Below are positions 5,116 through 26,540 of a stretch of DNA of 29,394 bases, one piece after another. Source of the DNA: a virus (lineage: Duplodnaviria > Heunggongvirae > Uroviricota > Caudoviricetes); the IMG/VR virus record IMGVR_UViG_2690316131_000018, one strand, 5' to 3'. Both the position numbers and the translations under genes were made by a program. The first letter of the stretch is position 1; each line of letters begins with the position of its first letter. A model generated the notes under the pieces. The model did not search any database. It was given only the letters and a program-made list of their open reading frames with translations, and was not told the DNA's origin.

Positions 5116-7586
5116 CAGAATCCCCCAACAGTAAGGCGAGGAATAACGGCAAGAACAGACAGCGGCAACGGGTCAAGCTGACGGATTTTTACACGTCCGT
5201 TTTTGCCCCAGTTACTGTCCAGTTTCACTTCTACCTTTCCGGTAGCATCATCAACAGGATCATCGTAGAACTCGAATTCACGCTGTGGATATTCGTACCA
5301 TTTACCGCCGGGCGTAGTCGCCCAGATGCCGCGGCTGGCATTCACAACCAGAGTAACGGACGGGATCACCTGTTTTTTGTCCAGCAGCGTTTCCTGTCCG
5401 TTAATGTTGATATCCAGTGTTTCGAATTCAGCAGTTATTGGCAGGCCGATGTGAACTACAGCCCCCGGAGATTCCAGCGTGACGGCACCTCCGGAAACCA
5501 CTTTCTGTGGTTCCACGTTCGCATCAGAGAGAATGTTTACGGTCTGGCCTTCAAGATGAGACAGGCCTCCAAATGTCCGGCGCGCCATCTGCCAGTTCGT
5601 GGTGGCCACATTCCTGAGGGATGGCGGGACGTTCCTGTTAGCACGAACCACTACAGCGGTATTGCTGGTTACAGAAATAATGTCGCAACGTAATTCTTTT
5701 GACACCTCATCACCAGTATCAGGATCAGTTCCGGTATAAGGGAACTGTAGTTGCGCGCCGACATCACTACTGGTGAAGTACGCACCACCAGAAACACTGA
5801 TTGTATATTCCGCGCGGTAATCCCATTCACCAGAACCACCAGTGATGGTCATCGTTCTGTCAGACGTATTTCTTCCATCATAGCTAAGGCCAGAATCAAC
5901 AAAGAAAGCATCTTCATCGCTGGTAAATAAACGGCTGGACAGTCGCTCGATGTATCTCACTGTTTGCCCGTTAACGGTTCGGTTAACGACGAAATACACC
6001 GCATCTTCATTTCCTTCGCTGATACTGCATGTGCTTTCATATTTTCCGGTACTGGATTGTGGTGCCCATGCAAAAACCTGCTGATCACGCAAATAGGTCA
6101 TCACCAGTAATTTACCGTCATCACGAATGCAGAAGGCGCTGGAGTAAGGGACAATAGAGAAGCACCAGTCAACAATACTGTGCTTCTGAAAAAGATGATT
6201 GGCAAGGATGGTCAGGTCGTTCCCCTGATAGCCGTCAACATCGAATGAGTAGGCCAGATCACGGACAACACTGCCTTTCTCCTGGACGAACAGAGCAATA
6301 TTCGCCACGGCAATTGGTGGGACATTGCTCGAGCCATTTGATCCCTGAGAGCTGAATGCAAATGATGATGGGGTAAGCACTTTGTTCTGGTCGCCAGTGA
6401 TGACGTACTCACCTCCGGAAGTCAGCGCCACCAGCGAACCAACATCAATCAGGTGACGGATCTCATTAACCTGACGCCCGGCATAGGTGTAGATAATTCT
6501 GTCGTCATCCTGCGTAGGATTGCTTTTGCCAAAATCCTTATAATCCCCGGTACGGCTGGCCCAGATAGTCTGAGGAAACGCAGTCGATGCGGCGAAGTAA
6601 AGACGTTGTTGATAATAAACAACAGTGCCAGGATAACCATTAACACTGTTCCAGGCATATTTAGCCCATTTATAGCTGGCATTATCCTCGCCCACGACCT
6701 GCGAAGGGATATAGGAAATCACCTCGGCAGTTGCAGTAGTTCCATTTGCAGCAGTGATACGGGCAATGCCAAAACCACTGTGCAGATATTCCCACTCAAT
6801 GCCAGTATCATCATCACCGGATCCGCCCCAGCCATCTCATGATGTGCCTTCTGTATGCGAAGGGCGCAAAGTACCTGTTTTGCCTGCTGTAACGGCGCGA
6901 TAGTAGTTACTGTCTGCACGGCGAATATCGCCAATCGACGTACTCTTACTGGTTTCCCATACCGGCACTGAATCCACTGCAGGCTGTTCCAGATAGAACA
7001 ATTTGCCTACCTGCTCCGCGCCAAAAATAGAGGCGCTTGCCGTTAACGTAATTGTCCCGGTGCTGGCGCTGGCATAAACCGTCACTGACTCGTCAATATT
7101 GATATCTTCAAATGGCCCGTTCTTCGTTACCACATCAACCAGTTGCCAGTTGTCATGAGCATATCGGCGCAACTCTTTCGGCGGGTATGCCGGGTGAACC
7201 AGCGTAAGCACGTCGGCGCTTTGCGTGAATTTAATTCGGAACAGATCGGCTTCAGTATATGGCGTGGCAATTTCATAAATAACATTGCTGCTGTTCAGCA
7301 CCAACGCACCATCTTTGATAACGCGCATGTACTGGTGTCCGAACTCCAGAGCATAGGTCTGAACCGTCGAGAACTCGAACGGGATCAGGCGGCATTTCCG
7401 ATTTGGGTATTTGGCGGCACCGACAAAACGCGTACCAGGTCGATTCTCAACGCCGCCATACTGCCGCACGATAAAGTTATCGCACTTGCGCAATGCTACC
7501 TGGTACTTCGCCATGTCAATACGCCCGTACAACGACGGTCCAATCTCACCACCGGCAAAGCTGGGCTGGATCCAACTGATAGCCAT
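5115..7586 (-). pseudogene. tail tubular protein B-like (T7 gp12-like) gene interrupted by an in-frame TGA
   Basis: ORFs 6837..7586 (249 aa) and 5115..6722 (535 aa) are in the same frame. The 38 codons between them (6723-6836) are all sense; only TGA at 6837-6839 separates them. No ATG or usable ribosome-binding site precedes the second part. The N-terminus (MAISWIQPSFAGGEIG) resembles the start of T7 gp12 from memory, and combined length is ~820 aa. Confidence 0.6.
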
Positions 7587-13292: not shown

Positions 13293-13382
13293 ATCAATGA
13301 CTCCGTACGCAATTAAATTATTACCAATTTAACCACATATGATTTATTTATCGTAGGTAGTTGACATTTACCGCACGAATTA

Positions 13383-13397
13383 TTACCTTCAAGGTAA
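13383..13397. promoter_or_regulatory. operator-like palindrome TTACCTTCAAGGTAA, with a TTGACA hexamer at 13361-13366
   Basis: Perfect TTACC-N5-GGTAA in the intergenic region between the portal operon and the tRNA island. A degenerate copy (TTACCAATTTAACCA, 13321-13335) lies ~62 bp away. Confidence 0.45.
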
Positions 13398-13720
13398 CCA
13401 AAGAGCTCATTCCGGTTACTAACCTGACTGGCTTGTCGTTAAATTGAACAGGTGGAGTGAGCTTTTATTTTGAGCAGTACGGCGTATGGCACATGCGACG
13501 ATAGCGGTCTGGATACGTTTAAGGGGGCACCCTCCCTTGCTCGGGCAAACGAACCAGGTAGCCGGAATGTGCAAGTCGAGCGGTTTTATTCCGCGCACGG
13601 GGATACACCATCCCGGCGATTCGGTGTGACGCCTCGGAAGAGACGAGGGTACAACGATGAGAGCATTTATGGAGCCGCGACAAAGTGTGGTGCCTTAACA
13701 GGCTAAGTGCTCTCAGCGTT

Positions 13721-13797
13721 GTGGCATTAGCTCAGTCGGACAGAGCAACCGCCTTCTAAGCGGTTGGTCGCAGGTTCGAATCCTGCATGCCACGCCA
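13721..13797 (+). tRNA. tRNA-Arg (anticodon UCU), phage-encoded
   Basis: 77-nt cloverleaf folded by hand: acceptor stem GTGGCAT/ATGCCAC, D-stem GCTC/GAGC, anticodon stem ACCGC/GCGGT with loop CTTCTAA, T-arm GCAGG-TTCGAAT-CCTGC, discriminator G and encoded CCA. D- and T-arms resemble host argU; acceptor and anticodon stems differ. Confidence 0.85.
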
Positions 13798-13840
13798 GAA
13801 TCACGCCTAAGGACCGTGATGCCAGAAGTTCCAGGTGCTT

Positions 13841-13884
13841 GGCGGTGATGGTTTCCCTTGAAGGGCTATCACCGCCCTTTTTAC
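13841..13884 (+). terminator. rho-independent terminator after the tRNA
   Basis: 9-bp stem GGCGGTGAT / ATCACCGCC with a structured loop, followed by CTTTTT. Confidence 0.6.
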
Positions 13885-13960
13885 AGCAGGACGCCATTGC
13901 GATGACTTCATGCTGTAAACCCGTACAGCCACGGAAGGCATAACTCATTGCTTCCAGTTC

Positions 13961-13985
13961 GCCCGGTTCGCCGGGCATTTTTTTG
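13961..13985 (+). terminator. second rho-independent terminator-like hairpin
   Basis: GCCCGG-TTCG-CCGGGC followed by ATTTTTTT. Confidence 0.5.
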
Positions 13986-14019
13986 CCTGATGACCGCAAA
14001 CTACCTTAAAGGTATAATC

Positions 14020-14838
14020 ATGAAAAAATTCAAGGTAATTAGCATGTTTGAATCGTTCAAAGAGCTGTTTTTATCTACTGCCAATACTGCCGTGAATCGA
14101 GCCAAAAACCCTGTGCTTGGTGCTTTTGTTATGTCCTGGTGCGCCTTCAACTGGAAATCAATTCTTTATCTATTTTTTAGCAAATCAAACATAATAGATA
14201 AAATTTCATATATCTCAGATAACAGCACATGGAAAACTGTTATGTTTTATCCATGCTTATCTGTAATTGCTATCTGCTGCCTATTACCATGGGTAAACAA
14301 TATCATTAACGTATGGCAAGCAAAGCCTCTTGATAATAATGACTCAATCGAAAATCACCTGAAGGCAAGAAAAATCCAGCGTGAAACAAGACTGCAGAGG
14401 TTATTGGCTAAAAAAGATGTTACATACGACAAAGTTAAGACTGGCGCGGAAAAAGACATCCAAGAGATGAAAGAAGAGATTATTCGATCAAAGAATAGTA
14501 TGGGGGAATTGACTGCCGAGTTGAAAGCTAAAGATGACGAATTGAGATCCGCCAGTGCTCAGTTAGCAGCTCTAAATCATTCATTAAAAGAGATATCGGA
14601 AACTCTTGGAAGAATGAATGAGGCATATAAGACCCTCCAAAATGATTTCGACGAATACAAACTCAAATACCCTGAAAAATCTCAAATAAAAAGCCTTGCA
14701 CTTGGCAACGGCCAAACAATTAGCAACTTTTTGGAGCAACACAACTTATCCGGATTAAAATCTGGTAAGCCAAACGTTTTTAATAACTTTGGTGTTCTAT
14801 CTGGATTATCAGGTTTCGAGGATAAAAATAAAGACTAA
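14020..14838 (+). CDS. AT-rich cargo gene: predicted membrane protein with long C-terminal coiled coil, unknown function
   Basis: The track ORF starts at 13948, but the probable start is the ATG at ~14020 (MKKFKVISMF), just after a TATAAT. Two hydrophobic segments near the N-terminus, then a charged heptad-like region. AT-rich versus the rest of the window. Convergent with the terminase gene, stops overlapping. Confidence 0.6.
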   Translation: MKKFKVISMFESFKELFLSTANTAVNRAKNPVLGAFVMSWCAFNWKSILYLFFSKSNIIDKISYISDNSTWKTVMFYPCLSVIAICCLLPWVNNIINVWQAKPLDNNDSIENHLKARKIQRETRLQRLLAKKDVTYDKVKTGAEKDIQEMKEEIIRSKNSMGELTAELKAKDDELRSASAQLAALNHSLKEISETLGRMNEAYKTLQNDFDEYKLKYPEKSQIKSLALGNGQTISNFLEQHNLSGLKSGKPNVFNNFGVLSGLSGFEDKNKD

Positions 14839-16310
14839 GCATATGGATCGTACTCGGTAAGCGCCTTGCCTTGCTGGTTCTGCTGCCCGGGAAGTCGCAG
14901 GCGCTTTGACACCGGGAAAGCAAACGTCAGCAGTAGCGCATCGCCTTTACCAGGAGAACGCCCAAGACGCTCTTTGATATCTTCCTTCGGTTCGATAACG
15001 ATTTTACCGTCCACACGAACTTTGTACTCTGCCGCCGACAGGTCGTCTGCAGTTTCCTGGTCATCCAGCATGCCGCCCAGCCTCAGCCATGTCTTACATG
15101 AGTTGAACATCTCCCCACGCTTGTTAAGCATCTGCGGGTCAGTGGACGCACCGCCGAACGGAACAAGTTGCCATGTACGCCCCCAGCCATCACCGATTGA
15201 CTTCAAACCGGTTCCGTAACCGAAGTCGATGAACACCGCGTCAGCCTGATACTGGTCTTCAAAGTCAGCGATACGCTTCGCCATAATCAGATCGTCAGTG
15301 GTCTTGTTGCCAGTCCACAGCACCTTACTGTGCAGCCCCTGCCGCAGGTATATCGCAGCGTCATCAACACCGGAGTATGCCGGGTCAACGCCGATTATCA
15401 CCGGAGCATGTACCACCTGCGCAGCGGTTACCACCCGTTTCATTGCCTCATCAGTAAGACCGGTAGGGATAAACTGCAATTCAGATGCATCAGGGAATAT
15501 GCCGCGCACACGGATTTTAACGAAGTCGCTGTCTTCCCCGTAGTCATCAACCCATTTCTGCAACTGCTATTTGTTAGTGCCTTCCACCGTCCGGCTGTCA
15601 ATCTGCGCAGTTTTCCAGCGGTGTTTGTATTTGCGGAAACATTCGCGAAAACGCCCGGTGTTACGTGTAGGGTTTCCGAACGCCACCCAGATAATCTCAG
15701 TGTCTTCGTCCGTAAGAGCACCCTCAGCAACTTCCCACACCAGATCCGCAATGTTCGACGCTTCATCAAATACCACGATGATGCGTTTGCGCTCGTTGTG
15801 TAGTCCGGCGAATGCCTCAGTGTTGTGCTCAGACCAGGGTATTGCGTCAGCCCGCCACCGCTTGTCGTGCCCAGGGTCATTGCTGTACATCGCGGTAGCG
15901 GTACAGGTAAACCAGTCTTTCGTGATGGCAAGGTTCGACCACTTGATAATTTCCGGCCAGGTCTTCGTTCGTAGCTGGTTGTCGGTGTTGGCGGTCACCA
16001 CGACCTTACAATCCTCGCAAGTGGACATGCCCCAGTTGATCAGCATTGAGATGAATGCGGATTTACCAATACCGTGACCAGAAGCGCGTGCCAGCATAAG
16101 CGGCTGATAGCGCGTCTCTGGATTCTGCAGGTGATCACGTATCTCTCGGAACGCATCGGCCTGCCACTGACGTGGACCGGTAGCATGTGCCAGTTCAGTC
16201 CCCTCTTCCCCCCAAGGGAACGCATAGAGGGCATAGCCAAGCGGATCGTGAGTGAACCCTGCAATATCTTCGATTAACTGCTCTTCAGGAGATAACGCTG
16301 CATCTGTCAC
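14835..16310 (-). pseudogene. terminase large subunit interrupted by an in-frame TAG
   Basis: ORF 15567..16310 has Walker A (GHGIGKS) and Walker B (IIVVFDEAS) motifs; ORF 14835..15563 has a nuclease-like Asp-rich region. Both are in one frame, separated only by TAG at 15567-15569 plus one sense codon. The second ORF starts at TTG, not ATG. Confidence 0.7.
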
Positions 16311-17017
16311 TGATTACCATCCTGACGTTCTTTGAGTCGCTTCCTGGCTGCTGCTATGCGATCAGCAATTGTCACATTCACATTAACATCCAGGCGTTCT
16401 TTGAATGCGTTGACGTCGACGTGCTTACCGATGAGCTCGAGGTTTTTCACCTTGTCGGGCCATTTCACCTTCTTCAGGATATGCTCGACATCCTCAACAG
16501 AGAGATCCGCCTCGCCATTCTCTTTTTGCAGGGAAGCCTGGGTTGTCTTGATGGTAGCGATATCCATAGCACTGAGAGAGGTACGCCAGACCTTCGGCCA
16601 TTCAGTGATCGGCTTCATCCCGCCGTCATCGTTCAGTATATCCAGCACGTCCATCTGGTCTATTTCCACCAGGCGCATGAGAACGTAATCAGCACTGACG
16701 CGCATTCGTTTGTTGCGCTCCTCCATCAACTCGGCAATCCGTTTTTGAATGCGTTCATCGCGCATCATGACACTGGCTTTAACTGCCGCTGTATTTGGAG
16801 AGAATCCTGCGTTAATCGCTGCCTGAGTCTGGTTTTCAGGCGTTTTGATGTATGACTGGCAATAAGCCTCCTGCATTGCTGTTAGTGGCTTAAATTGCGT
16901 TGATTTGCGTTTATAGGTTTTAGGTTCAGCAGGCATCATAACCACCCTGGTAATTGTTACCGTCGTGGTAATAGTAACATGCAAAATAAAGCCGCCATAG
17001 TTGGCGGCAGTATTCAA
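16307..17017 (-). CDS. terminase small subunit
   Basis: Motif AYCQSYIKTPENQTQAAINAGFS is typical of phage small terminases. Probable start is the ATG at ~16939 (MMPAEPK); the longer track N-terminus would run through a terminator and operator. Confidence 0.65.
   Translation of the reverse strand: MNTAANYGGFILHVTITTTVTITRVVMMPAEPKTYKRKSTQFKPLTAMQEAYCQSYIKTPENQTQAAINAGFSPNTAAVKASVMMRDERIQKRIAELMEERNKRMRVSADYVLMRLVEIDQMDVLDILNDDGGMKPITEWPKVWRTSLSAMDIATIKTTQASLQKENGEADLSVEDVEHILKKVKWPDKVKNLELIGKHVDVNAFKERLDVNVNVTIADRIAAARKRLKERQDGNQ
16957..16971. promoter_or_regulatory. operator-like palindrome TTACCGTCGTGGTAA just upstream of the terminase genes
   Basis: Perfect TTACC-N5-GGTAA between the terminator (16981-17008) and the small terminase start (~16939). 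Confidence 0.45.
16981..17008 (-). terminator. rho-independent terminator between the nin-like block and the terminase genes
   Basis: GCCGCC-N6-GGCGGC hairpin followed on the - strand by TTTATTTTG. Confidence 0.5.
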
Positions 17018-17057
17018 AACCCATCAAATTCATCATGCATAATCTACTCGTGACATG

Positions 17058-17405
17058 TCACACTATTAATTTCGTTTCATGCCAGCCTTTAGTCACCCAG
17101 CATTGCGAGTCACCATTACACGGGCATGAATTAACTGGAACTCTCTCGCCGCACTTACCGCAACGTTTTCTGCTGATCGATTTTATACGCCCGCGCACAC
17201 GTGCATCATCCTGGCGGATCAGCAGCGCGATGTACTCGGCCATTTCATAGGGATCGCGACCAGGGCGCCGGGCGGCGCAGTTCCGCGCTAGCATTTCCTG
17301 CTCCTGCTTATCCAGCACCAGTTCAATTTTGCGCTCACCGGCGGCGGACTGCCGAGCGCGCTGCGCGGCTTTGCGTTCTGCGGGGGATTTAGCCACGAAT
17401 CGCAC
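17058..17405 (-). CDS. hypothetical basic protein with Cys-rich C-terminus (possible DNA-binding regulator)
   Basis: 115-aa ORF with GTG start. Arg/Lys-rich N-terminus and a CGKCG...CPCNGDSQC cluster. Last gene before the terminase terminator. Confidence 0.4.
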   Translation of the reverse strand: MRFVAKSPAERKAAQRARQSAAGERKIELVLDKQEQEMLARNCAARRPGRDPYEMAEYIALLIRQDDARVRGRIKSISRKRCGKCGERVPVNSCPCNGDSQCWVTKGWHETKLIV

Positions 17406-17511
17406 TCCACGCCAGATTGATTAATGACTCCCAGGTAATATAAACCCGGATACCAGCAGCCAGGCCGAAACCAATCACCATGGCATAAAGCAGAGCGTTG
17501 CACTTGTTCAT
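17389..17511 (-). CDS. possible small hydrophobic protein (~40 aa)
   Basis: ATG at ~17511 overlaps the stop of the DUF551 gene (ATGA). MNKCNALLYAMVIGFGLAAGIRVYITW is a single hydrophobic segment. Not independently supported. Confidence 0.25.
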   Translation of the reverse strand: MNKCNALLYAMVIGFGLAAGIRVYITWESLINLAWSAIRG

Positions 17512-18410
17512 CACTTCACCTCCTGCGGCGGTTCTGGTAGAGGCATCCAGTGTGATGGTATCCACGACGCACCAGGTATTACCCACCCATCATTAGCGTC
17601 AGGATGCCCCGGGATGTAAGTCGCCCATTTCATTCGCCAGTCACCTTTCCTGTCAAACTCCCTGGCAACAAGAACGGCTGTTTTGGTATCCGGCATTCGC
17701 TCACTACAGCTTATCCAACCATCCGGAGTTGCCGGAGAGTTGCCCGATAGTGCATTCTGCTCCAGTGATGCTTTTACAAACCACGCTGCCTGAACTATAA
17801 CGCCATGAATCCAGCGCAAATCAGCATCGCGATCTTTCTTTTTCATCTTTTCGCCACTTAAGGCCTTGCTTATGTGGCTGCGTACCAGGTCTTCATGTAA
17901 TTCCTTCGCCTCCTCAATGGTGAAACCACCAGGCAGAAGAGCCGGAGTTACCGGAGAGCTGGTTGACGCTTCCGGGATTTCCCGAAAATTATTGGTTGAC
18001 GAATTCTTGCTTTCCCGAAAGTTTCCGGACTGAAGCATGGCGGTGCGGCAGGCGTTCCATATTTCGGCAGCAATATCGCGCTCGCTATCGGTTAATTTGT
18101 ACGTGGAAACATAGCCAGAGAGCATTTCTACGTTTTCCGGAGTTGCTTCTTCCGGCACTACCGGCGCTGGCGGGGCGATGCGTCCAAGCAACTTATTTAC
18201 CTCTTTCGCCATCGCGTCATATTTATCTAAATGGCGATTAGCTTCTAAGCAGACTCGGCGCATCTGATCTGAGTTAACTCGTTTAACTGGATCTGCTTCC
18301 AGCGATGCCAGCGCAATCCGTGCCAGTTCCATTTGTTCACCACGGGTAAGCCCGTTTTCAAGCGGATTTTTAATGAACAATTCAATACGTTCTTTGGTAA
18401 TAGTGGTCAT
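17511..18410 (-). CDS. DUF551-domain phage protein
   Basis: 299-aa ORF. The C-terminus (...WISCSERMPDT...HWMPLPEPP) matches the DUF551 signature common in prophage nin regions. Confidence 0.55.
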   Translation of the reverse strand: MTTITKERIELFIKNPLENGLTRGEQMELARIALASLEADPVKRVNSDQMRRVCLEANRHLDKYDAMAKEVNKLLGRIAPPAPVVPEEATPENVEMLSGYVSTYKLTDSERDIAAEIWNACRTAMLQSGNFRESKNSSTNNFREIPEASTSSPVTPALLPGGFTIEEAKELHEDLVRSHISKALSGEKMKKKDRDADLRWIHGVIVQAAWFVKASLEQNALSGNSPATPDGWISCSERMPDTKTAVLVAREFDRKGDWRMKWATYIPGHPDANDGWVIPGASWIPSHWMPLPEPPQEVK

Positions 18411-18649
18411 GTGTTAATCCTCAAAACTTTATGCCCGGGCGCAAAAGTACGTGTTTTGTCTTTGCTTATTCGCCAGCCATCCTTGCGCGCCTCTTTTGCA
18501 CAGCCAGCCCATGACGTACCTATATACTCACCGAAGTCTGGCACTGGATATACACCTTCCGTGCACTGACGGCAGTCACAATAGAGATGCATGGTGTAAC
18601 TTGCAGCGATAGCCATATCACTCTCCTTTGATGCGAATGCCTGTTGCAA
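18407..18649 (-). CDS. small Cys-rich hypothetical protein
   Basis: Probable start is the internal ATG at ~18616 (MAIAASYTMHLYCDCRQC), which avoids overlap with the upstream gene. Confidence 0.4.
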   Translation of the reverse strand: MQQAFASKESDMAIAASYTMHLYCDCRQCTEGVYPVPDFGEYIGTSWAGCAKEARKDGWRISKDKTRTFAPGHKVLRINT

Positions 18650-19061
18650 TGCTGTTTATGATGCTGTCAGTGCATGGGGTAGAAAGCTGGGCATCTCCAG
18701 CAATTTTCATGACCTCAACATCTGCATATCGAATACCGAGGTGTATCAGACCGGCTATGCCTGACTTAAGCCGAGCATTTTCCATAAATAGAACTTTTGC
18801 CCGCTGTTTTTCTGCTTCAAGCTCAACGCGCAGCTTCCCTACCGTTAGCGCAATATCCTCGTTCTCCTGATCGCGGCTTTTGATGTATTTCTGGTTTCTT
18901 TCCCGTTCATCCAGAAGCGCCAGCACAATGTGTGGCGTTATCAGGGACTCAAATTCGGCAACAGCTTGCTCGCCTCGCTTGTAATTCTTAATCCCACCTA
19001 AATCTTTCGCGTTCTGCGCCGCCTCACGCAGTACCTGATAGTCAATTGTCATTCTCGCCAT
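18618..19061 (-). CDS. Ead/Ea22-like coiled-coil protein
   Basis: 147-aa ORF with a coiled-coil core containing ENARLKS, also present in the ORF at 19690..20136. Confidence 0.5.
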   Translation of the reverse strand: MARMTIDYQVLREAAQNAKDLGGIKNYKRGEQAVAEFESLITPHIVLALLDERERNQKYIKSRDQENEDIALTVGKLRVELEAEKQRAKVLFMENARLKSGIAGLIHLGIRYADVEVMKIAGDAQLSTPCTDSIINSIATGIRIKGE

Positions 19062-19693
19062 CCTTCACAGTTGTAATCACTACAGCCTTCAAAATCATAT
19101 GGGCTGTACTGCCAGGTGATTTTTCCGCAATGCGGACAATTCCAGCGCACCTTCCCGCTTCGTGACTTCTTTCTTCTGTTTTGCTTTTTCAACCAGTCAG
19201 GCATGATCAAACCTGCGCCCTGAACCATTGTTCTGCGGTTAAAATTATTGATATTGAACGTCCGCCGCTTTGCTGCATCGGCAATGGAAAATGGCAACCA
19301 AACTATTCCTGGTTCGTTTTTGTTGGCGACGCTAAAGATGGTCGCTTTACTGAAGTCATCTGTTGGCAATCCACCGTGTTGAAGCCAGTAAACATCGTTG
19401 CCGTTCCAGCTACCTTTTTTGTAGGCCACATACGCAGTGCAATCTGACTCAATCAGGCTTTCTGTAGGGATGTACTGGCAATCAACGTGCCACACAGCCA
19501 TTGCATCCACGCTATCAGCGCAAACAGGCTGATCGATATCTCGTCCACAATTCCAGGCTTTTTGGGCTTCTTCCAGCGTGTAAATATGAGCGCGATCGAT
19601 ATCAGAACTGTAACCATTGCCGTTATGGCAATGGAATGAGGCGTTATTACCCACAGTTTCACGCAAGCACATCATGTAAAAACGGTTACTCAC
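19049..19693 (-). CDS. hypothetical Cys-rich protein with C-terminal zinc-ribbon-like motif
   Basis: 214-aa ORF ending CPHCGKITWQ...CSDYNCEGW. Confidence 0.45.
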   Translation of the reverse strand: MSNRFYMMCLRETVGNNASFHCHNGNGYSSDIDRAHIYTLEEAQKAWNCGRDIDQPVCADSVDAMAVWHVDCQYIPTESLIESDCTAYVAYKKGSWNGNDVYWLQHGGLPTDDFSKATIFSVANKNEPGIVWLPFSIADAAKRRTFNINNFNRRTMVQGAGLIMPDWLKKQNRRKKSRSGKVRWNCPHCGKITWQYSPYDFEGCSDYNCEGWRE

Positions 19694-20136
19694 TGGTTGC
19701 CTCCTTTGCGAAGCTCAGCGGCGAAGGCTACTGCGTGATCATGATGTTCAAGTGTGTATGCACACTTGAACATCTCCACGCCCTGCGCCCGTACTTCAGC
19801 TAGGAAAGCATCGGTGGCTGGGGTGTCAACACGGATACTGTCGCGCAAGATGAAAAATGCATTGAGCATCCCAGTCTCCGGCACTTCATCCTGATACTTC
19901 TCATACGCATCAAGAGCCTTCATCATCTCAGGTCCGAATGGTTGAGGGTGCGCAGATTTCAGTCTCGCATTCTCCGCCGCCAGCGCATTAGCACGCACCA
20001 GTTGCACTTCCAGTTGCGTTGCCAAATCGCTGATCAGCTTTGCCACACTGCGCATATCAACGGCACCACATTCTGCTTTCAGTTCCGAAGCCATCTCATG
20101 CCCGGCGGCAACTAACCCTTTGATATTACTTTCCAT
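19690..20136 (-). CDS. Ead/Ea22-like protein (paralog of 18618..19061)
   Basis: 148-aa ORF sharing the ENARLKS coiled-coil motif. Confidence 0.5.
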   Translation of the reverse strand: MESNIKGLVAAGHEMASELKAECGAVDMRSVAKLISDLATQLEVQLVRANALAAENARLKSAHPQPFGPEMMKALDAYEKYQDEVPETGMLNAFFILRDSIRVDTPATDAFLAEVRAQGVEMFKCAYTLEHHDHAVAFAAELRKGGNQ

Positions 20137-20197
20137 CTTTACCCTCGCTTATCCACATAACTTATTGATTACATTGATAACTAAAAAGATCGTCGAT

Positions 20198-20542
20198 TCA
20201 GAACTCTTCGATGTTCCAGCCACCACCTGCTTTCTTTGGTTTAACCGTTACCCCGATGATTCGGAACGGATACTGATCTGCGGCGACTTTGGTTTTCACC
20301 CTGGCGTCGTCGGTCCAGAAACCTTTCACTTCGTGCAGTTCCATCTCTCCGGTGGCGAGCATCACAGCGAAATCGGGCGTATAGAACGTGTTATCAGCTA
20401 ACCGCAGCTTGATACCCTCAAATCGATACCAGACGATTTCTCCTGCACGTTTACGCAGCTCAAGGTGCTGGCAATACGCAGATTCTGTTTTGTTCATCTG
20501 ACCTGTTTTGAGTCGACCAAGAGCCTGTATCTGTTTTCTCAT
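20198..20542 (-). CDS. DUF1064-like phage protein, putative PD-(D/E)xK nuclease
   Basis: 114-aa ORF with ATG start. The YTPDF...E.HEVKG pattern fits a restriction-endonuclease-like fold. Confidence 0.5.
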   Translation of the reverse strand: MRKQIQALGRLKTGQMNKTESAYCQHLELRKRAGEIVWYRFEGIKLRLADNTFYTPDFAVMLATGEMELHEVKGFWTDDARVKTKVAADQYPFRIIGVTVKPKKAGGGWNIEEF

Positions 20543-20545
20543 GAT

Positions 20546-20622
20546 TTACCTCTGAGGTAATTAAAAACCACATAAGACACGAAATCAATAGATTTTAGAA
20601 TATTTTATTACCTAACAGGTAA
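20546..20622 (-). promoter_or_regulatory. repressible promoter for the nin-like block, flanked by two operator palindromes
   Basis: On the - strand: operator TTACCTGTTAGGTAA (20608-20622), then -35 TTGATT (20583-20588), 17-nt spacer, -10 TTTAAT (20560-20565), then operator TTACCTCAGAGGTAA (20546-20560) abutting the -10 and containing the ribosome-binding site for the ATG at 20542. Confidence 0.5.
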
Positions 20623-20659
20623 TTGTCGAGGCGTAAAAAAATGCGCTATCGCGCTGGTA

Positions 20660-21460
20660 TTACTTGATAAATCCTGCCGCCTTTCCTCGCCTGTATTCCT
20701 CCATCAGCCACTGCGCCGGTGTTATTCCACCAAGGGTGGCGGCGTTAGGCATGCACCCGAAACTTCGCCCTGGTGGATGGTAAACGTCTCTCCCTGTGTC
20801 CGGAGGTGTACTCATGGGTTCTGGCTTTGCCTGTATGCTGATCACCGGATCGGGTATCTGCTGTCCGGAAGCCACCTTTTTCGCCCAATCATCGAGCAGC
20901 TTGCGCGCGTGTTTCTCAACCTCAATCTCGCTAAGCTGGCGCTGATACATTGCACGGCGGGTATCACATACGACCCAGTACATAACCGGATGTCGCCACG
21001 GGAATCTTTCGGGACCACCAGGATATAAACTTTTTTCCTTGCTGTACCGGTTAAACTCCGCCATCACATCGTCAATGGTGACGCCAAGAACCATCTTGCT
21101 GTCTTTACACCACTTGATGAATTGCCCAGGCGACGGCCAGAACGGAGATTCACTGGCGCGGGCGTGGCGCATACCAGCAGAAACCTGTTCACGGGTTCGG
21201 ATCCCCCCTTCGGCAAACGCAGCAATCCACTGCTGTTTTGCAGCAACTTCCTGCTCTGGCGTCTTCAGGTTGGTTACCACTGCCGCCGGAAACAGTTGTT
21301 TCAGCTGTTTGAAAAGGGCATCAACAAGCCTCTCTGCTGACATGTTCACCACGTTATCATTGTTGGTGTACTGATGCTCATAACCTGACATGCGAGAAAG
21401 GGCTTCTCCGTCACGGTTTTGTATCGCGGTAAAAACGTTGTTCACAAGAAATCCTCCCAT
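20660..21460 (-). CDS. lambda P-like replication protein (helicase loader)
   Basis: Central region closely resembles lambda P from memory (WIAAFAEGGIRTREQVSAGMRHARASESPFWPSPGQFIKWC; LYPGGPERFPWRHPVMYWVV). Probable start is GTG at ~21445, preceded by GGAGGA and overlapping the O-like stop. Confidence 0.75.
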   Translation of the reverse strand: MGGFLVNNVFTAIQNRDGEALSRMSGYEHQYTNNDNVVNMSAERLVDALFKQLKQLFPAAVVTNLKTPEQEVAAKQQWIAAFAEGGIRTREQVSAGMRHARASESPFWPSPGQFIKWCKDSKMVLGVTIDDVMAEFNRYSKEKSLYPGGPERFPWRHPVMYWVVCDTRRAMYQRQLSEIEVEKHARKLLDDWAKKVASGQQIPDPVISIQAKPEPMSTPPDTGRDVYHPPGRSFGCMPNAATLGGITPAQWLMEEYRRGKAAGFIK

Positions 21461-22257
21461 GCTTCAGGGCTGTTCCTGTGCGGAACGTTGTTATCAGGTA
21501 ATGTTGATTGCTTCTGTCTGCTAATCTGCAGCCTCCTTGCCAGCTTCTGCTCCCACTGTGCCTGATGGTATGCCTTACCCTCAGCCATCCAGTAAATTCT
21601 GAACTCTGCAAGTTCCTGTGCCGTTGGCAGACTGTCCAGGTAGATCCCCTGCAATGAGCTTTTCCGAAGAAAGTCATCTGATGGCTGCCATTGTTCATGC
21701 ATGACAAATTTGCCTAATTGCCCTGGCCCACCAGGAGGAACAAAGTTATTCATCACGGCGTTGTTTGCGCCGGGGTCATGAGGCACAGAATCCCCGCTTT
21801 TTGTCCTGCTCTCCCTCTCTTGGTTAAATGACTGGTTATATGACTGGTTCTGGATCCCGTTTTTGGGATCATTCAACATCCCGTTTTTGGGATCATTCAA
21901 CATCCCGTTTTTGGGTATATTCCCGTTTTCGGTAACATTACCGTTTTCGGGTTCATTGCCCCCCTCCAGGTTGCCTTTAATGTTCCCGTTTTTGGTTATA
22001 TTAAGAGAGAAAACCCGCACTCTTTTTGTCGCTCCCTTTCTCTCTCCGGTATCTGAAATAAGCCCCATTTTCATGAGCGATATAAGCCCGGCCTGCACGG
22101 TTTTTTTATTCAGGCAAGTGTCTTTAACGAGGCGTTCTATGCTGGGGTAGCAGAGGTTATATTCATCGGCTCTGTCAGCCATCGAGAGCAGTATGAGCTT
22201 TAATGATGAGCTACCTGGATCTGTCTCCCAGGCCCAATCTGTTGCATGTCTGCTCAT
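21442..22257 (-). CDS. lambda O-like replication initiator
   Basis: 271-aa ORF with an N-terminal HTH-like region, internal repeats (NGMLNDPKNG) encoded by iterons, and position directly upstream of the P-like gene. ATG at 22257 with GGAG ribosome-binding site. Confidence 0.7.
   Translation of the reverse strand: MSRHATDWAWETDPGSSSLKLILLSMADRADEYNLCYPSIERLVKDTCLNKKTVQAGLISLMKMGLISDTGERKGATKRVRVFSLNITKNGNIKGNLEGGNEPENGNVTENGNIPKNGMLNDPKNGMLNDPKNGIQNQSYNQSFNQERESRTKSGDSVPHDPGANNAVMNNFVPPGGPGQLGKFVMHEQWQPSDDFLRKSSLQGIYLDSLPTAQELAEFRIYWMAEGKAYHQAQWEQKLARRLQISRQKQSTLPDNNVPHRNSPEAWEDFL
21854..22002. repeat. origin-type iterons inside the O-like gene
   Basis: Two tandem 24-bp copies of ATCCCGTTTTTGGGATCATTCAAC followed by degenerate copies. 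Each has an internal inverted repeat (ATCCC...GGGAT) and resembles lambda ori iterons. Confidence 0.65.
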
Positions 22258-22272
22258 GATTAATCTCCGCTA

Positions 22273-22536
22273 TCAGCTTGAGTGTTGTGGGGAGGAATTA
22301 ATCATGATCTGCTTAATCTCTGCCCTGATGCGACGGTTTGATTCCATGGTGCACTCAACACAGTGTCCGTTGTAAACCCAGCGTTCACTGTCATGTCCGT
22401 GCTTACATGGTTTTCCGGTGTAGTAGCGTTTAAGTCCGCGCTTTGCGGCATCAATACGTGTAATGATTTCCATGGTAAGCCCTGTTATTAGTATTGGGAT
22501 TACGGTTATTTTGTGCTGACACAAAAAAAAGATCAA
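22273..22536 (-). CDS. small zinc-finger-like hypothetical protein (cII position)
   Basis: Probable start is the ATG at ~22473 (MEIITRIDAAK...CKHGHDSERWVYNGHCVEC). Located between the Cro-like and O-like genes. Confidence 0.4.
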   Translation of the reverse strand: MIFFLCQHKITVIPILITGLTMEIITRIDAAKRGLKRYYTGKPCKHGHDSERWVYNGHCVECTMESNRRIRAEIKQIMINSSPQHSS

Positions 22537-22553
22537 CCATATTTGGTTTTTTA

Positions 22554-22568
22554 TTACCTTTGAGGTAC
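22554..22568. promoter_or_regulatory. operator-like palindrome TTACCTTTGAGGTAC
   Basis: Imperfect TTACC-N5-GGTAA between the Cro-like gene's terminator hairpin and the next gene. Confidence 0.4.
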
Positions 22569-22583
22569 GAATAGATATGAAAA

Positions 22584-22601
22584 GACCGCCGGATGGCGGT
22601 C
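22584..22601 (-). terminator. possible terminator after the Cro-like gene
   Basis: GACCGCC-GGAT-GGCGGTC hairpin followed on the - strand by TTT. Weak T-tract. Confidence 0.35.
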
Positions 22602-22623
22602 TACAGAGGGTTGTGGCTGGATA

Positions 22624-22854
22624 TCATGAGTAGAAGAAGTATGCCAGTTCTGCTTTTGAGCGCAGCCATTGTCTTGTTTTACAGGCTTTAAAAAGCCCAT
22701 TCATCAATACCTTACCTGGGATTTTGCGCTTACCTGTTAAGTGAGTCTGGATATAGTGACTCGTCGTTCCGGCTTCCTGTGCGAAGGCTTCACGCTCATC
22801 CGGAGTAAGTGCAAGCCAGTGCTTTTTGAAATCGAAATGTCCGTTATCGCTCAT
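22624..22854 (-). CDS. Cro/CII-like HTH regulator, first gene of the rightward-equivalent operon
   Basis: 76-aa ORF with ATG start, divergent from the repressor gene. HTH-like segment EAGTTSHYIQTHLTGKRKIP. Confidence 0.55.
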   Translation of the reverse strand: MSDNGHFDFKKHWLALTPDEREAFAQEAGTTSHYIQTHLTGKRKIPGKVLMNGLFKACKTRQWLRSKAELAYFFYS

Positions 22855-22890
22855 AGCTATTGCCTGATATTTATTTCAGATAATAAATAT

Positions 22891-22953
22891 TCACCCATAA
22901 GGTAACAAAAATCAAGGATAGTTACCTGTGGGGTGCATTTACCTGTTGGGTAA
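22891..22953. promoter_or_regulatory. tripartite operator region between the Cro-like and repressor genes
   Basis: Three TTACC-N5-GGTAA-type sites: TCACCCATAAGGTAA (22891-22905), TTACCTGTGGGGTGC (22922-22936) and the perfect TTACCTGTTGGGTAA (22939-22953). Confidence 0.6.
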
Positions 22954-23008
22954 TATTGCTTTAAATTGAATCATCTACTGATTCATATATGAGGCGATTT
23001 TCCAGAAA

Positions 23009-23593
23009 ATGAAAAGTATCCAGGACGTCCGCAGGCAAAATCTCAACGACTTGATCGACCGTGAATTCAATGGTGTTCAGACGCGGATGGCAGAAAAACT
23101 TGGAACTCAGGCAAATCTGGTAAACCGCTGGGCTCTTGGCAAGAAGGTTATCGGCGACCAGGTTGCGCGAAAAATCGAAGCTGCCGCCAATAAACCCCGT
23201 AACTGGCTTGATATCGATCGCTCGCTTTCTCAGGAAGGTTTTCAGCCTGTCGGACCAAGCGACATTGGTCAACTGGCGGCTCACAACCTGGAACGCTGGA
23301 TGAGCGAAAGCCGCGACCTTTCAACACAGGGAAAACTTCACCGCGCATCTGGCGTCTCCCAGGTGACAATCAGCCGCCTGTTAAACAATGAGGTCAGCGT
23401 TTCCATTTCCACCCTGGAGAATGTTGCATCCGCATTCGGGCGTCACGGCTATGAATTACTGATTCACCCGCACGACCCTGCGACCATCAACTATGACCGC
23501 TCGCGCTACGCATTGTTACCCGAAACCGAGAAAGCAAAGATCGAAAGTTACATTGAATTTGTCATCAACCAGAACGAAAAAAACAAACAATAA
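23009..23593 (+). CDS. prophage repressor-like HTH protein, no obvious autocleavage domain
   Basis: 194-aa ORF with ATG start, divergent from the Cro-like gene. Two HTH-like segments (QTRMAEKLGTQANLVNRWA and ASGVSQVTISRLL). I see no Ser/Lys peptidase motifs. Confidence 0.6.
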   Translation: MKSIQDVRRQNLNDLIDREFNGVQTRMAEKLGTQANLVNRWALGKKVIGDQVARKIEAAANKPRNWLDIDRSLSQEGFQPVGPSDIGQLAAHNLERWMSESRDLSTQGKLHRASGVSQVTISRLLNNEVSVSISTLENVASAFGRHGYELLIHPHDPATINYDRSRYALLPETEKAKIESYIEFVINQNEKNKQ

Positions 23594-23613
23594 AATCATA
23601 TTTTTCAGTAAGT

Positions 23614-23640
23614 AAGCCGCCTTCTGGCGGCTTTTTTATT
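23614..23640 (+). terminator. rho-independent terminator after the repressor gene
   Basis: AAGCCGCC-TTCT-GGCGGCTT followed by TTTTATT. Confidence 0.6.
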
Positions 23641-23650
23641 GCCTGTTTGA

Positions 23651-23727
23651 TTACCTAAAGGGTAATTTTTTTAACTCATATCTATTGACACCAAACCAAA
23701 TACGCATAATCATTACCTCAACGGTAA
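23651..23727 (+). promoter_or_regulatory. pL-like early-left promoter with two flanking operator palindromes
   Basis: TTACCTAAAGGGTAA (23651-23665), TTGACA (23685-23690), CATAAT-like -10, then TTACCTCAACGGTAA (23713-23727). Operator centres are ~62 bp apart, as at the nin promoter. Confidence 0.5.
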
Positions 23728-26427: not shown

Positions 26428-26540
26428 GTGTGCTGCTAAGGCACTGGAGCAAATGGTCAGGATGGTACTTATTCCTGGCCTCTGTTTCAGCATGGCTTTA
26501 TCTGCTGGCATTAATTTTCAGAGAGGGTTGGATTAAGTGA
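26424..26540 (+). CDS. possible small hydrophobic peptide (38 aa)
   Basis: ATG overlaps the AlpA-like stop (ATGA). My translation, MSVLLRHWSKWSGWYLFLASVSAWLYLLALIFREGWIK, has one transmembrane-like segment. Unsupported otherwise. Confidence 0.25.
   Translation: MSVLLRHWSKWSGWYLFLASVSAWLYLLALIFREGWIK

What the first reader, a model, noticed from the sequence alone, without database searches (positions are those of the whole stretch)
13321..23727. One 15-bp palindrome, TTACC-N5-GGTAA, recurs at essentially every promoter-like region of the prophage
Perfect copies at 13383-13397, 16957-16971, 20546-20560, 20608-20622, 22939-22953, 23651-23665 and 23713-23727, plus imperfect copies at 13321-13335, 14001-15, 22554-68, 22891-905 and 22922-36. 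Every one is intergenic. They cover the immunity region, the pL-like promoter, the promoter after the Cro-like gene, the nin promoter, the site upstream of terminase and the tRNA/cargo island. A single regulator, most simply the repressor at 23009..23593, may therefore touch early, replication, nin, late and cargo transcription directly. I do not recognise the motif as a known operator.
Basis: partly seen in the sequence, partly recalled or inferred. Interest (0 to 1): 0.8.

Follow-up and report, generated by a model that had tools for sequence, protein, structure and literature searches.

The report
Known repressor operators of an epsilon15-like prophage
The repeated 15-bp palindrome is real and far from chance, but it is the operator set of the prophage's repressor, and the GenBank record of the sister phage epsilon15 already annotates the same motif as repressor-binding sites.

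Summary
TTACC-N5-GGTAA occurs 7 times perfectly in the window, against 0.01 expected, and 10 times with up to one mismatch, against 0.47 expected. All copies lie in the 5.8% of the window that is non-coding. 200 kb of E. coli chromosome and phage lambda contain no perfect copy.

The window is a phiV10-like prophage of the genus Uetakevirus (epsilon15-like podoviruses). The same motif sits at the same intergenic positions in phiV10, epsilon15, SPC32H, Enterobacter phage Tyrion and Klebsiella phage BUCT711. The N5 spacer varies between them. Pairs of sites keep a fixed 62-bp spacing around two early promoters.

The epsilon15 GenBank record already marks seven such sites as protein_bind "repressor". 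The gene at 23009-23593 is a full-length homologue of SPC32H Rep (PDB 5D50). Papers citing the primary study describe Rep as a tetramer that binds palindromic sites and is released by an antirepressor.

The claim that the motif is not a known operator is not.

Inferred here but not shown: one Rep tetramer bridges two operators centred near -62 and +1 of the promoter. Low novelty.

The parts
23009..23593 (+). Rep, the prophage repressor (194 aa). It has an N-terminal DNA-binding domain, a middle HTH-fold dimerisation domain and a C-terminal tetramerisation/Ant-binding domain. It has no S24 peptidase domain.
   Evidence: phmmer against PDB: 5D50_A SPC32H Repressor, E 4e-42 over residues 1-190. 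Pfam gives HTH_3 at 106-147 and no Peptidase_S24. 99.5% identical to phiV10 p40 and ZX5 ORF21. Domain names from PMC9986798.
22624..22854 (-). Cro-like small regulator, transcribed divergently from Rep. It may share the OR operators.
   Evidence: phrog_35 'transcriptional repressor', E 5e-13. 59-83% identical across the genus, with the block AGTTSHYIQ.HLT conserved (invariant except one position).
22891..22905 (.). OR site nearest cro (TCACCCATAAGGTAA, 1 mismatch). It overlaps the core of the rightward (cro) promoter.
   Evidence: The scan finds TTGTTA-17-TATTAT at 22908-22880. The invariant TTGATT on the - strand at 22915-22910 is my reading of the sequence.
22922..22936 (.). Middle OR site (TTACCTGTGGGGTGC, 2 mismatches). 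It is degenerate in the phiV10 clade and perfect in epsilon15 and BUCT711.
22939..22953 (.). OR site nearest rep (perfect).
23651..23665 (.). pL upstream operator O_A (perfect). It sits 19 nt upstream of the -35 hexamer, just after the rep terminator at 23614-23633.
23685..23713 (+). pL-like core promoter, TTGACA-17-AATCAT.
   Evidence: Promoter scan, 10 of 12 matches. CTATTGAC is invariant in 6 genomes.
23713..23727 (.). pL downstream operator O_B (perfect). It starts at the last base of the -10 hexamer, covers the predicted start site, and lies 62 bp from O_A.
22554..22568 (.). Single site (1 mismatch) just downstream of the cro terminator (22602-22583, - strand), 81 bp upstream of the next small gene.
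   Evidence: An orthologous one-mismatch site is present in phiV10, Tyrion and BUCT711; none within one mismatch in epsilon15.
20608..20622 (.). Post-replication ('nin') promoter upstream operator O_A (perfect).
20560..20588 (-). Inferred core promoter of the nin-like operon: -35 TTGATT (20588-20583), 17 nt, -10 TTTAAT (20565-20560).
   Evidence: The block TATTGA is invariant and the geometry matches pL in alignment A4. The promoter scan instead called a non-conserved TCGACA-16-TAAAAT.
20546..20560 (.). Nin promoter downstream operator O_B (perfect), 62 bp from O_A. Its spacer and right half (GAGAGG) double as the Shine-Dalgarno of the DUF1064 gene, whose ATG is at 20542.
16957..16971 (.). Site (perfect) between a terminator (17008-16991, - strand) and terS.
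   Evidence: Orthologous to the epsilon15 site at 12-27, which is annotated as repressor-binding.
16939..16953 (.). Second terS site (TAACCACCCTGGTAA, 1 mismatch), 18 bp from the first. It covers the terS ribosome-binding site and abuts the ATG.
   Evidence: The same 18-bp pair is present in phiV10, epsilon15 and Tyrion.
13383..13397 (.). Site (perfect) between the late gp3/portal operon (- strand) and the divergent tRNA/cargo unit (+ strand). Its left half falls at the -10 position, 17 nt after the conserved TTGACA.
   Evidence: Orthologous to the epsilon15 site at 2931-2947, which is annotated as repressor-binding.
13362..13367 (+). -35 TTGACA of the divergent promoter that points into the variable tRNA/moron region.
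   Evidence: Reverse-complementing the late-strand sequences gives TTGAC at this position in all six genomes (sixth base A in five, C in BUCT711). The promoter assignment is inferred.
13321..13335 (.). Half-site only (GGTAAT on the - strand), 62 bp from 13383, inside a block of about 55 nt that is nearly invariant upstream of the gp3-like gene.
   Evidence: There are 4 mismatches to the full palindrome, so Rep binding here is uncertain.
14001..14015 (.). Weak candidate site (CTACCTTAAAGGTAT, 2 mismatches). It overlaps a TATAAT and the ribosome-binding site of the cargo ORF (14020-14838).
   Evidence: It resembles the conserved GGTAT variant upstream of int in phiV10, epsilon15 and Tyrion. It could be chance.

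Best explanation
The palindromes are the operators of the prophage repressor Rep (23009-23593), a homologue of the Rep of Salmonella phages epsilon15 and SPC32H. The consensus is A-TTACC-wwWww-GGTAA-T, with half-sites 10 bp (one helical turn) apart. Paired N-terminal helix-turn-helix domains of a Rep tetramer would recognise the two half-sites.

In lambda, operators are confined to OL and OR. Here an operator sits at every transcription unit. There are three between rep and cro. Two sites 62 bp apart bracket each of the two strong early promoters. Singles or 18-bp pairs lie before terS, before the gp3/portal late operon together with the divergent tRNA unit, and after the cro terminator. In the complete relatives there are further sites before ant/tail fibre, the lysis cassette and int.

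In the lysogen Rep would therefore silence each unit directly. It would act by occluding the -10/+1 region (O_B), the upstream A/T-rich region (O_A), or the ribosome-binding region as a roadblock.

Inferred: one tetramer, with two pairs of DNA-binding domains, clamps O_A and O_B across a promoter. Induction would be by a small antirepressor that dismantles the tetramer, not by RecA-mediated cleavage; the antirepressor gene lies outside this window.
For: - Enrichment and location: 7 perfect copies against 0.01 expected, all in the 5.8% of the window that is intergenic. None in 200 kb of host chromosome or in lambda.
- Conservation: the motif occurs at orthologous positions in phiV10, epsilon15, SPC32H, Tyrion and BUCT711, which infect four host genera. 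These genomes hold 8-11 perfect copies each. Half-sites are invariant while the N5 spacer varies.
- Spacing: the 62-bp pairs at pL and at the nin promoter are kept in all of them, with one 63 in BUCT711.
- Prior annotation: epsilon15 GenBank annotates 7 of these sites as repressor-binding.
- Rep homology: full-length homologue of PDB 5D50, E 4e-42. NLVNRW in the N-terminal domain is invariant, and that domain is 54-56% identical to the epsilon15, SPC32H and BUCT711 Reps (90% to Tyrion) against 36-37% (72% for Tyrion) for the rest of the protein.
- Literature on Rep: it binds palindromic sites as a tetramer, the domain pairs come from different dimers, one tetramer suffices, and an Ant tetramer breaks it up (PMC9638917 citing Kim et al. 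2016; PMC9986798).
- Function of the identical protein: overexpressed ZX5 Rep cut endolysin and holin transcripts by more than 99.9% and abolished free phage (PMC9782041).
- No S24 peptidase domain.
Against: - I could not read any direct binding data for these sites. The primary papers (Kim & Ryu 2013; Kim et al. 2016; Kropinski et al. 2007) are not in the library. The epsilon15 annotation may be purely computational.
- The Cro-like protein is equally conserved. Comparison cannot separate it from Rep as the binder.
- The terS sites and the 22554 site lack a recognisable sigma-70 promoter, so their mode of action (roadblock?) is a guess.
- Bridging of sites 62 bp apart by one tetramer is my inference.
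- The 2-mismatch and half-site copies (14001, 13321) may not bind.
Confidence: 0.85

Rival explanations
1. The dispersed sites are bound mainly by the Cro-like protein (22624-22854), or by another phage DNA-binding protein such as the AlpA-like or PerC-like early-left products, rather than by Rep.
For: The Cro-like protein has an HTH-type profile match. It is conserved across the genus, as is the motif. In lambda-type switches Cro shares the repressor's operators.
Against: A lytic-phase regulator sitting on the late, lysis, int and terS regions would hinder lytic growth. Rep overexpression alone shuts off lysis-gene transcripts. The epsilon15 record assigns the sites to the repressor. The literature describes Rep binding palindromic sites.
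Confidence: 0.07
2. The palindromes act in RNA, as small hairpins for processing or translational control. Several overlap ribosome-binding sites.
For: 20546, 16939 and 14001 overlap Shine-Dalgarno sequences. The epsilon15 record annotates RNase III sites in some of the same intergenic regions.
Against: - The hairpins are weak, -1 to -6 kcal/mol.
- The half-site sequence itself is invariant in 36 sites and shows no base-pair covariation. Imperfect sites break pairing with no compensating change.
- The O_A sites lie upstream of the -35 hexamer and one OR site overlaps a core promoter, that is, in DNA rather than in the local transcript.
Confidence: 0.03
3. The motif is the site of a host transcription factor, or is a recombination 'boundary' sequence at module junctions.
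For: The motif is the same in phages of four enterobacterial genera. It flanks variable moron regions such as the tRNA/cargo island.
Against: There is no perfect copy in 200 kb of E. coli chromosome, and the one-mismatch rate there is at chance level. I know of no E. coli factor with this site (my own knowledge). The fixed geometry relative to the -35 and -10 hexamers points to transcriptional control. The conserved Rep DNA-binding domain explains the cross-genus constancy.
Confidence: 0.03

Closest known systems
Repressor-binding sites annotated in Salmonella phage epsilon15 (GenBank AY150271.2)
   Same: Same 17-bp palindrome ATTACC-N5-GGTAAT, same genus, and the same positions: before terS, before gp3, in the pL region and after the replication genes.
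   Different: Rep is only 42% identical overall. The phiV10-type records and the ZX5 paper do not annotate the operators. The epsilon15 record lists 7 sites, whereas a scan finds 11 perfect copies, including three OR-region sites (two perfect, one with one mismatch) that it omits.
SPC32H Rep-Ant switch (PDB 5D50, 5D4Z; Kim et al. 2016, read only through citing papers)
   Same: Homologous repressor with the same domain order. SPC32H carries 10 perfect copies of the motif. The phiV10 homologue of Ant is 86% identical to SPC32H Ant.
   Different: The ant gene lies outside this window. Binding to these particular sites and the 62-bp bridging are not documented in anything I could read.
Lambda CI/Cro with OL and OR and CI-mediated looping
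   Same: Divergent repressor and cro genes with three operators between them. Paired operators and oligomeric repressor bridging.
   Different: There is no S24 autocleavage domain. Operators are at every transcription unit rather than two clusters. Each 62-bp pair brackets a single promoter, unlike the 2.4-kb OL-OR loop (lambda facts from my own knowledge).
Dispersed multi-operator phage repressors: P1 C1 and mycobacteriophage L5/L1 gp71 'stoperators'
   Same: One repressor with many sites spread over the genome, some acting downstream of promoters (PMC1934351 abstract; details from my own knowledge).
   Different: Those sites are asymmetric and bound differently. No sequence homology was seen here. 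The sites in this window are symmetric palindromes.
RP4 KorA global repressor
   Same: A symmetric operator repeated at several promoters of one mobile element (PMC2665229 abstract).
   Different: It is a plasmid system with an unrelated protein. It serves only as an analogy.

Membership tests
Uetakevirus (epsilon15/SPC32H-type) Rep-operator system | Repressor homologous to SPC32H/epsilon15 Rep over its full length (DNA-binding domain, dimerisation domain, C-terminal tetramerisation/Ant-binding domain) | tested here: met
   5D50_A, E 4e-42, residues 1-190 of 194. Alignment A1 has 71 invariant columns.
Uetakevirus (epsilon15/SPC32H-type) Rep-operator system | Palindromic ATTACC-N5-GGTAAT sites as annotated for the epsilon15 repressor | tested here: met
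   The epsilon15 protein_bind features read ATTACCnnnnnGGTAAT. The window has 7 perfect copies.
Uetakevirus (epsilon15/SPC32H-type) Rep-operator system | Sites at orthologous intergenic positions with conserved spacing | tested here: met
   Spacings recur across genomes: 62-bp pairs in all five; 18-bp terS pair in four; 48 bp at OR in the phiV10 clade, 17 bp in epsilon15 and BUCT711. See also alignments A3-A5.
Uetakevirus (epsilon15/SPC32H-type) Rep-operator system | Small antirepressor Ant that releases Rep | tested here: inconclusive
   The ant locus is outside the window. In phiV10, which is 98% identical to the window in the immunity region, p24 is 86% identical to SPC32H Ant.
Uetakevirus (epsilon15/SPC32H-type) Rep-operator system | Physical binding of Rep to the sites | not testable with these tools
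   Only secondary descriptions were available. The primary papers are not held.
Lambda-type CI repressor | C-terminal S24 (LexA-like) autocleavage domain | tested here: not met
   Pfam finds only HTH families.
Lambda-type CI repressor | Operators confined to two clusters, OL and OR | tested here: not met
   Sites lie in seven separate intergenic regions of the window.
Stoperator-type dispersed operators (L5 gp71, P1 C1) | Asymmetric sites, orientation-dependent | tested here: not met
   The sites are perfect palindromes.

The most novel reading that the evidence does not exclude
Two readings are not excluded.

(a) Each strong early promoter is built as a fixed cassette: terminator, O_A, about 19 nt of A/T-rich DNA, -35, 17 nt, then a -10 hexamer that overlaps O_B. 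A single Rep tetramer would clamp the two operators, 62 bp (about six helical turns) apart, across the promoter. This would give the 'trans' domain-pairing described for the SPC32H structure a concrete DNA target.

(b) The operator word, the Rep DNA-binding domain and Ant are all conserved in phages of Escherichia, Salmonella, Enterobacter and Klebsiella, while the rest of Rep has drifted to about 37% identity. The whole genus may therefore form one immunity and induction group. Its specificity may be frozen because a change would have to be matched at 12 or more dispersed sites.
Probability: 0.35. Interest if true: 0.4.

Novelty: already known. Interest (0 to 1): 0.15.

Why it matters
The result has little value as a discovery. 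It has some value for annotation:
- About 10% of complete E. coli genomes (562 of 5426) carry this immunity region.
- Neither the phiV10-type GenBank records nor the 2022 ZX5 study list the operators.
- The site map and the promoter-operator cassette give a ready design for reporter and binding experiments.
- They suggest that phages of this genus silence every transcription unit directly rather than through a regulatory cascade.

Tried and rejected
- Primary papers. I tried to read Kropinski 2007, Kim & Ryu 2013 and Kim 2016 by PMC id, PubMed id and DOI. None is held.
- Full-text searches for the motif words gave nothing relevant.
- Rep relatives in viral contigs: 80 loci came back, all 99-100% identical, so they were useless for covariation.
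- The only distant hit in the phage collection was a Pseudomonas cI sharing the N-terminal domain. It has a different recognition helix and showed no clear recurrent palindrome, so I dropped it.
- I first thought operator specificity might be frozen while antirepressor specificity diversifies. I rejected this because Ant is 82-87% identical between the phiV10-type and epsilon15/SPC32H-type phages, far more conserved than Rep.
- The promoter scan's TCGACA-16-TAAAAT at the nin region is not conserved. I replaced it with the conserved TTGATT-17-TTTAAT.
- RNA-hairpin reading: rejected.
- I did not run the large protein-database searches, because Rep and Cro are co-inherited. Covariation could not have told them apart.
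Full report
**Observation**

Shuffles that preserve dinucleotide content give 0.01 on average. With up to one mismatch there are ten copies against 0.47 expected.

- 14001 and 22922 have two mismatches. That class has a chance background of about eight per window.
- 13321 has four mismatches and is only a half-site.

With a gene map built from the ORF list and phiV10 homology, 5.8% of the window is intergenic. Every site with 0 or 1 mismatch lies there; the chance that seven random positions all do so is about 2e-9. Seven of the eight gaps of 100 nt or more hold a site. The eighth (26428-26536) probably corresponds to a 38-codon gene annotated in phiV10 (p35).

Controls: 200 kb of E. coli H10407 chromosome has no perfect copy and nine one-mismatch copies, close to the chance rate. 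Phage lambda has none perfect and one with one mismatch.

**What the window is**

The immunity region is 98% identical to Escherichia phage phiV10. It is 77-78% identical to Enterobacter phages Tyrion and BUCT554. About 562 of 5426 complete E. coli genomes carry it. phiV10 belongs to the genus Uetakevirus, the epsilon15-like temperate podoviruses.

The window runs from tail genes through the head genes, a tRNA/cargo island, terL and terS. It continues through the nin-like and replication genes and the cro-like gene, all on the - strand. Rep and the early-left operon are on the + strand. The window ends inside the integrase gene.

**Comparison with relatives**

The same palindrome is present in every relative I fetched:

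| Genome | Perfect copies | Copies with up to 1 mismatch |
|---|---|---|
| phiV10 | 8 | 14 |
| epsilon15 | 11 | 15 |
| SPC32H | 10 | 18 |
| Tyrion | 9 | 15 |
| Klebsiella phage BUCT711 | 9 | 13 |

The sites fall at the same intergenic positions in each. Across 36 perfect sites from four clades the half-sites are invariant by construction. The flanks favour A and T, giving A-TTACC...GGTAA-T. The five spacer bases vary freely, except that the central base is A or T in 92%.

The complete genomes show further sites outside this window. These lie between ant and the tail-fibre gene, before the lysis cassette, and, as a conserved GGTAT variant, before int.

**Already annotated**

The epsilon15 GenBank record carries seven protein_bind features labelled 'repressor / lysogeny'. 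Their sequences are ATTACC-N5-GGTAAT. Their positions correspond to the window's terS, gp3, pL and nin sites. So the motif has been publicly recognised as this genus's repressor operator.

The phiV10 record annotates no operators. The 2022 ZX5 paper does not map them either.

**The binder**

The protein from 23009-23593 matches the SPC32H repressor (PDB 5D50) over its whole length, with E 4e-42. It has no S24 peptidase domain.

Papers citing Kim et al. 2016 give the following description (PMC9638917; PMC9986798):
- Rep has an N-terminal DNA-binding domain, a middle dimerisation domain and a C-terminal tetramerisation domain.
- It binds palindromic sites as a tetramer.
- Each DNA-binding pair is drawn from different dimers.
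- One tetramer suffices for repression.
- A tetrameric antirepressor, Ant, dismantles the complex.

The N-terminal domain is 54-56% identical between the window's Rep and the epsilon15, SPC32H and BUCT711 proteins (90% to Tyrion), with NLVNRW invariant. The rest is 36-37% identical (72% for Tyrion). That fits an unchanged operator.

The Rep of phage ZX5, 99.5% identical to the window's protein, abolished free phage when overexpressed. It also cut endolysin and holin transcripts by more than 99.9% (PMC9782041).

The Cro-like protein is equally conserved. Sequence comparison cannot exclude that it shares the sites, at least at OR.

**Anatomy and likely mechanism**

Alignments of the pL region and the post-replication ('nin') region across the genus show one repeated cassette:
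- the T-run of a terminator;
- operator O_A;
- about 19 nt of A/T-rich DNA;
- the invariant CTATTGA(C/T) holding the -35 hexamer;
- a 17-nt spacer;
- a -10 hexamer whose last base is the first base of operator O_B.

O_B thus covers about -7 to +8. O_A is centred 62 bp upstream. The 62-bp distance is kept in all genomes, with one 63 in BUCT711. At the nin promoter, O_B also holds the Shine-Dalgarno sequence of the first gene.

OR has three sites spaced 31 and 17 bp apart between the divergent rep and cro genes. The site nearest cro lies in the cro promoter core.

The terS region has two sites 18 bp apart, between a terminator and the start codon. The 22554 site follows the cro terminator. Neither has a recognisable sigma-70 promoter, so a roadblock role is a guess.

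The 13383 site lies at the -10 position of a conserved TTGACA promoter. That promoter points into the variable tRNA/moron region. The site is also 62 bp from an invariant half-site in a highly conserved block before the gp3-like late gene.

The half-sites are 10 bp apart, as expected for a pair of HTH domains on one face of the helix. My inference, not shown, is that one tetramer with two domain pairs clamps O_A and O_B across a promoter.

**Rivals**

- RNA hairpins are weak, -1 to -6 kcal/mol. Imperfect sites are never compensated, and several sites lie in untranscribed promoter DNA.
- A host factor is unlikely, given the absence of the motif from host DNA.
- Exclusive binding by Cro would put a lytic-phase regulator on the late genes, which makes little sense.

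**Verdict**

The proposed mechanism is very probably right. But this is the known operator set of a known repressor family. Novelty is low.

What this analysis adds is a complete site map for the phiV10-type prophage, the promoter-operator cassette with its fixed 62-bp geometry, and one comparative point. Operator, DNA-binding domain and Ant (82-87% identical) are conserved across four host genera. This suggests a single immunity group.

Noticed in passing
window 15567-15569 (- strand) and 6837-6839 (- strand): Two in-frame nonsense codons in essential genes. terL codon 248 is TAG where phiV10 has CAG. Codon 250 of the p15-like 823-aa structural protein is TGA where phiV10 has TGG. Both genes are otherwise colinear with phiV10 (65 and 52 nt differences). 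The prophage is probably defective, although its repressor and operators are intact.
   Followed up: partly
window 21821-21957, inside the replication gene 21442-22257 (- strand): Iteron-like array: ATCCCGTTTTTGGGATCATTCAAC repeated 2.6 times (100% matches), followed by about three 18-bp variants and preceded by TGGTTAAATGAC repeated 2.4 times. This is a likely replication origin inside the initiator gene, as in lambda O.
   Followed up: partly
window 14020-14838 (+ strand): Cargo ORF of 272 aa with no Pfam family. It matches phrog_4780 (unknown function). Its only matches to defence-system profiles are weak (E 2e-5 to 9e-3) and lie in SMC-like proteins such as JetC, so I read them as coiled-coil similarity. 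Two terminators precede it (13841-13876 and 13961-13976). It replaces phiV10 p03/p04 at this locus.
   Followed up: partly
window 13721-13797 (+ strand): tRNA-Arg (UCU), transcribed divergently from the late genes. SPC32H has a tRNA-Arg at the same locus (2788-2861 in KC911856).
   Followed up: partly
window 13293-13350 (- strand); also L001 3300-3356, L002 2980-3036: A block of about 55 nt is nearly invariant in phages of four host genera, just upstream of the gp3-like gene: CTACGnTAAATAAATCATATGTGGTTAAATTGGTAATAATTTAATTGCGTACGGAG. It may be the late promoter or leader. It shares TATGTGG with the nin promoter spacer.
   Followed up: no
L001 20543-20800, L085 19676-19936 (outside the window): The small antirepressor Ant is 82-87% identical between phiV10-type and epsilon15/SPC32H-type phages, while their repressors are only 42% identical. 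phiV10 labels this gene 'hypothetical' and calls the neighbouring Bro-domain protein the anti-immunity protein.
   Followed up: partly
L001 41-121 (phiV10 terS start): The annotated phiV10 terS start (41) places both terS operators (87-119) inside the coding sequence. The in-frame ATG at 119, directly after the second operator, matches the start used in epsilon15 and in this window. It is probably the true start.
   Followed up: partly
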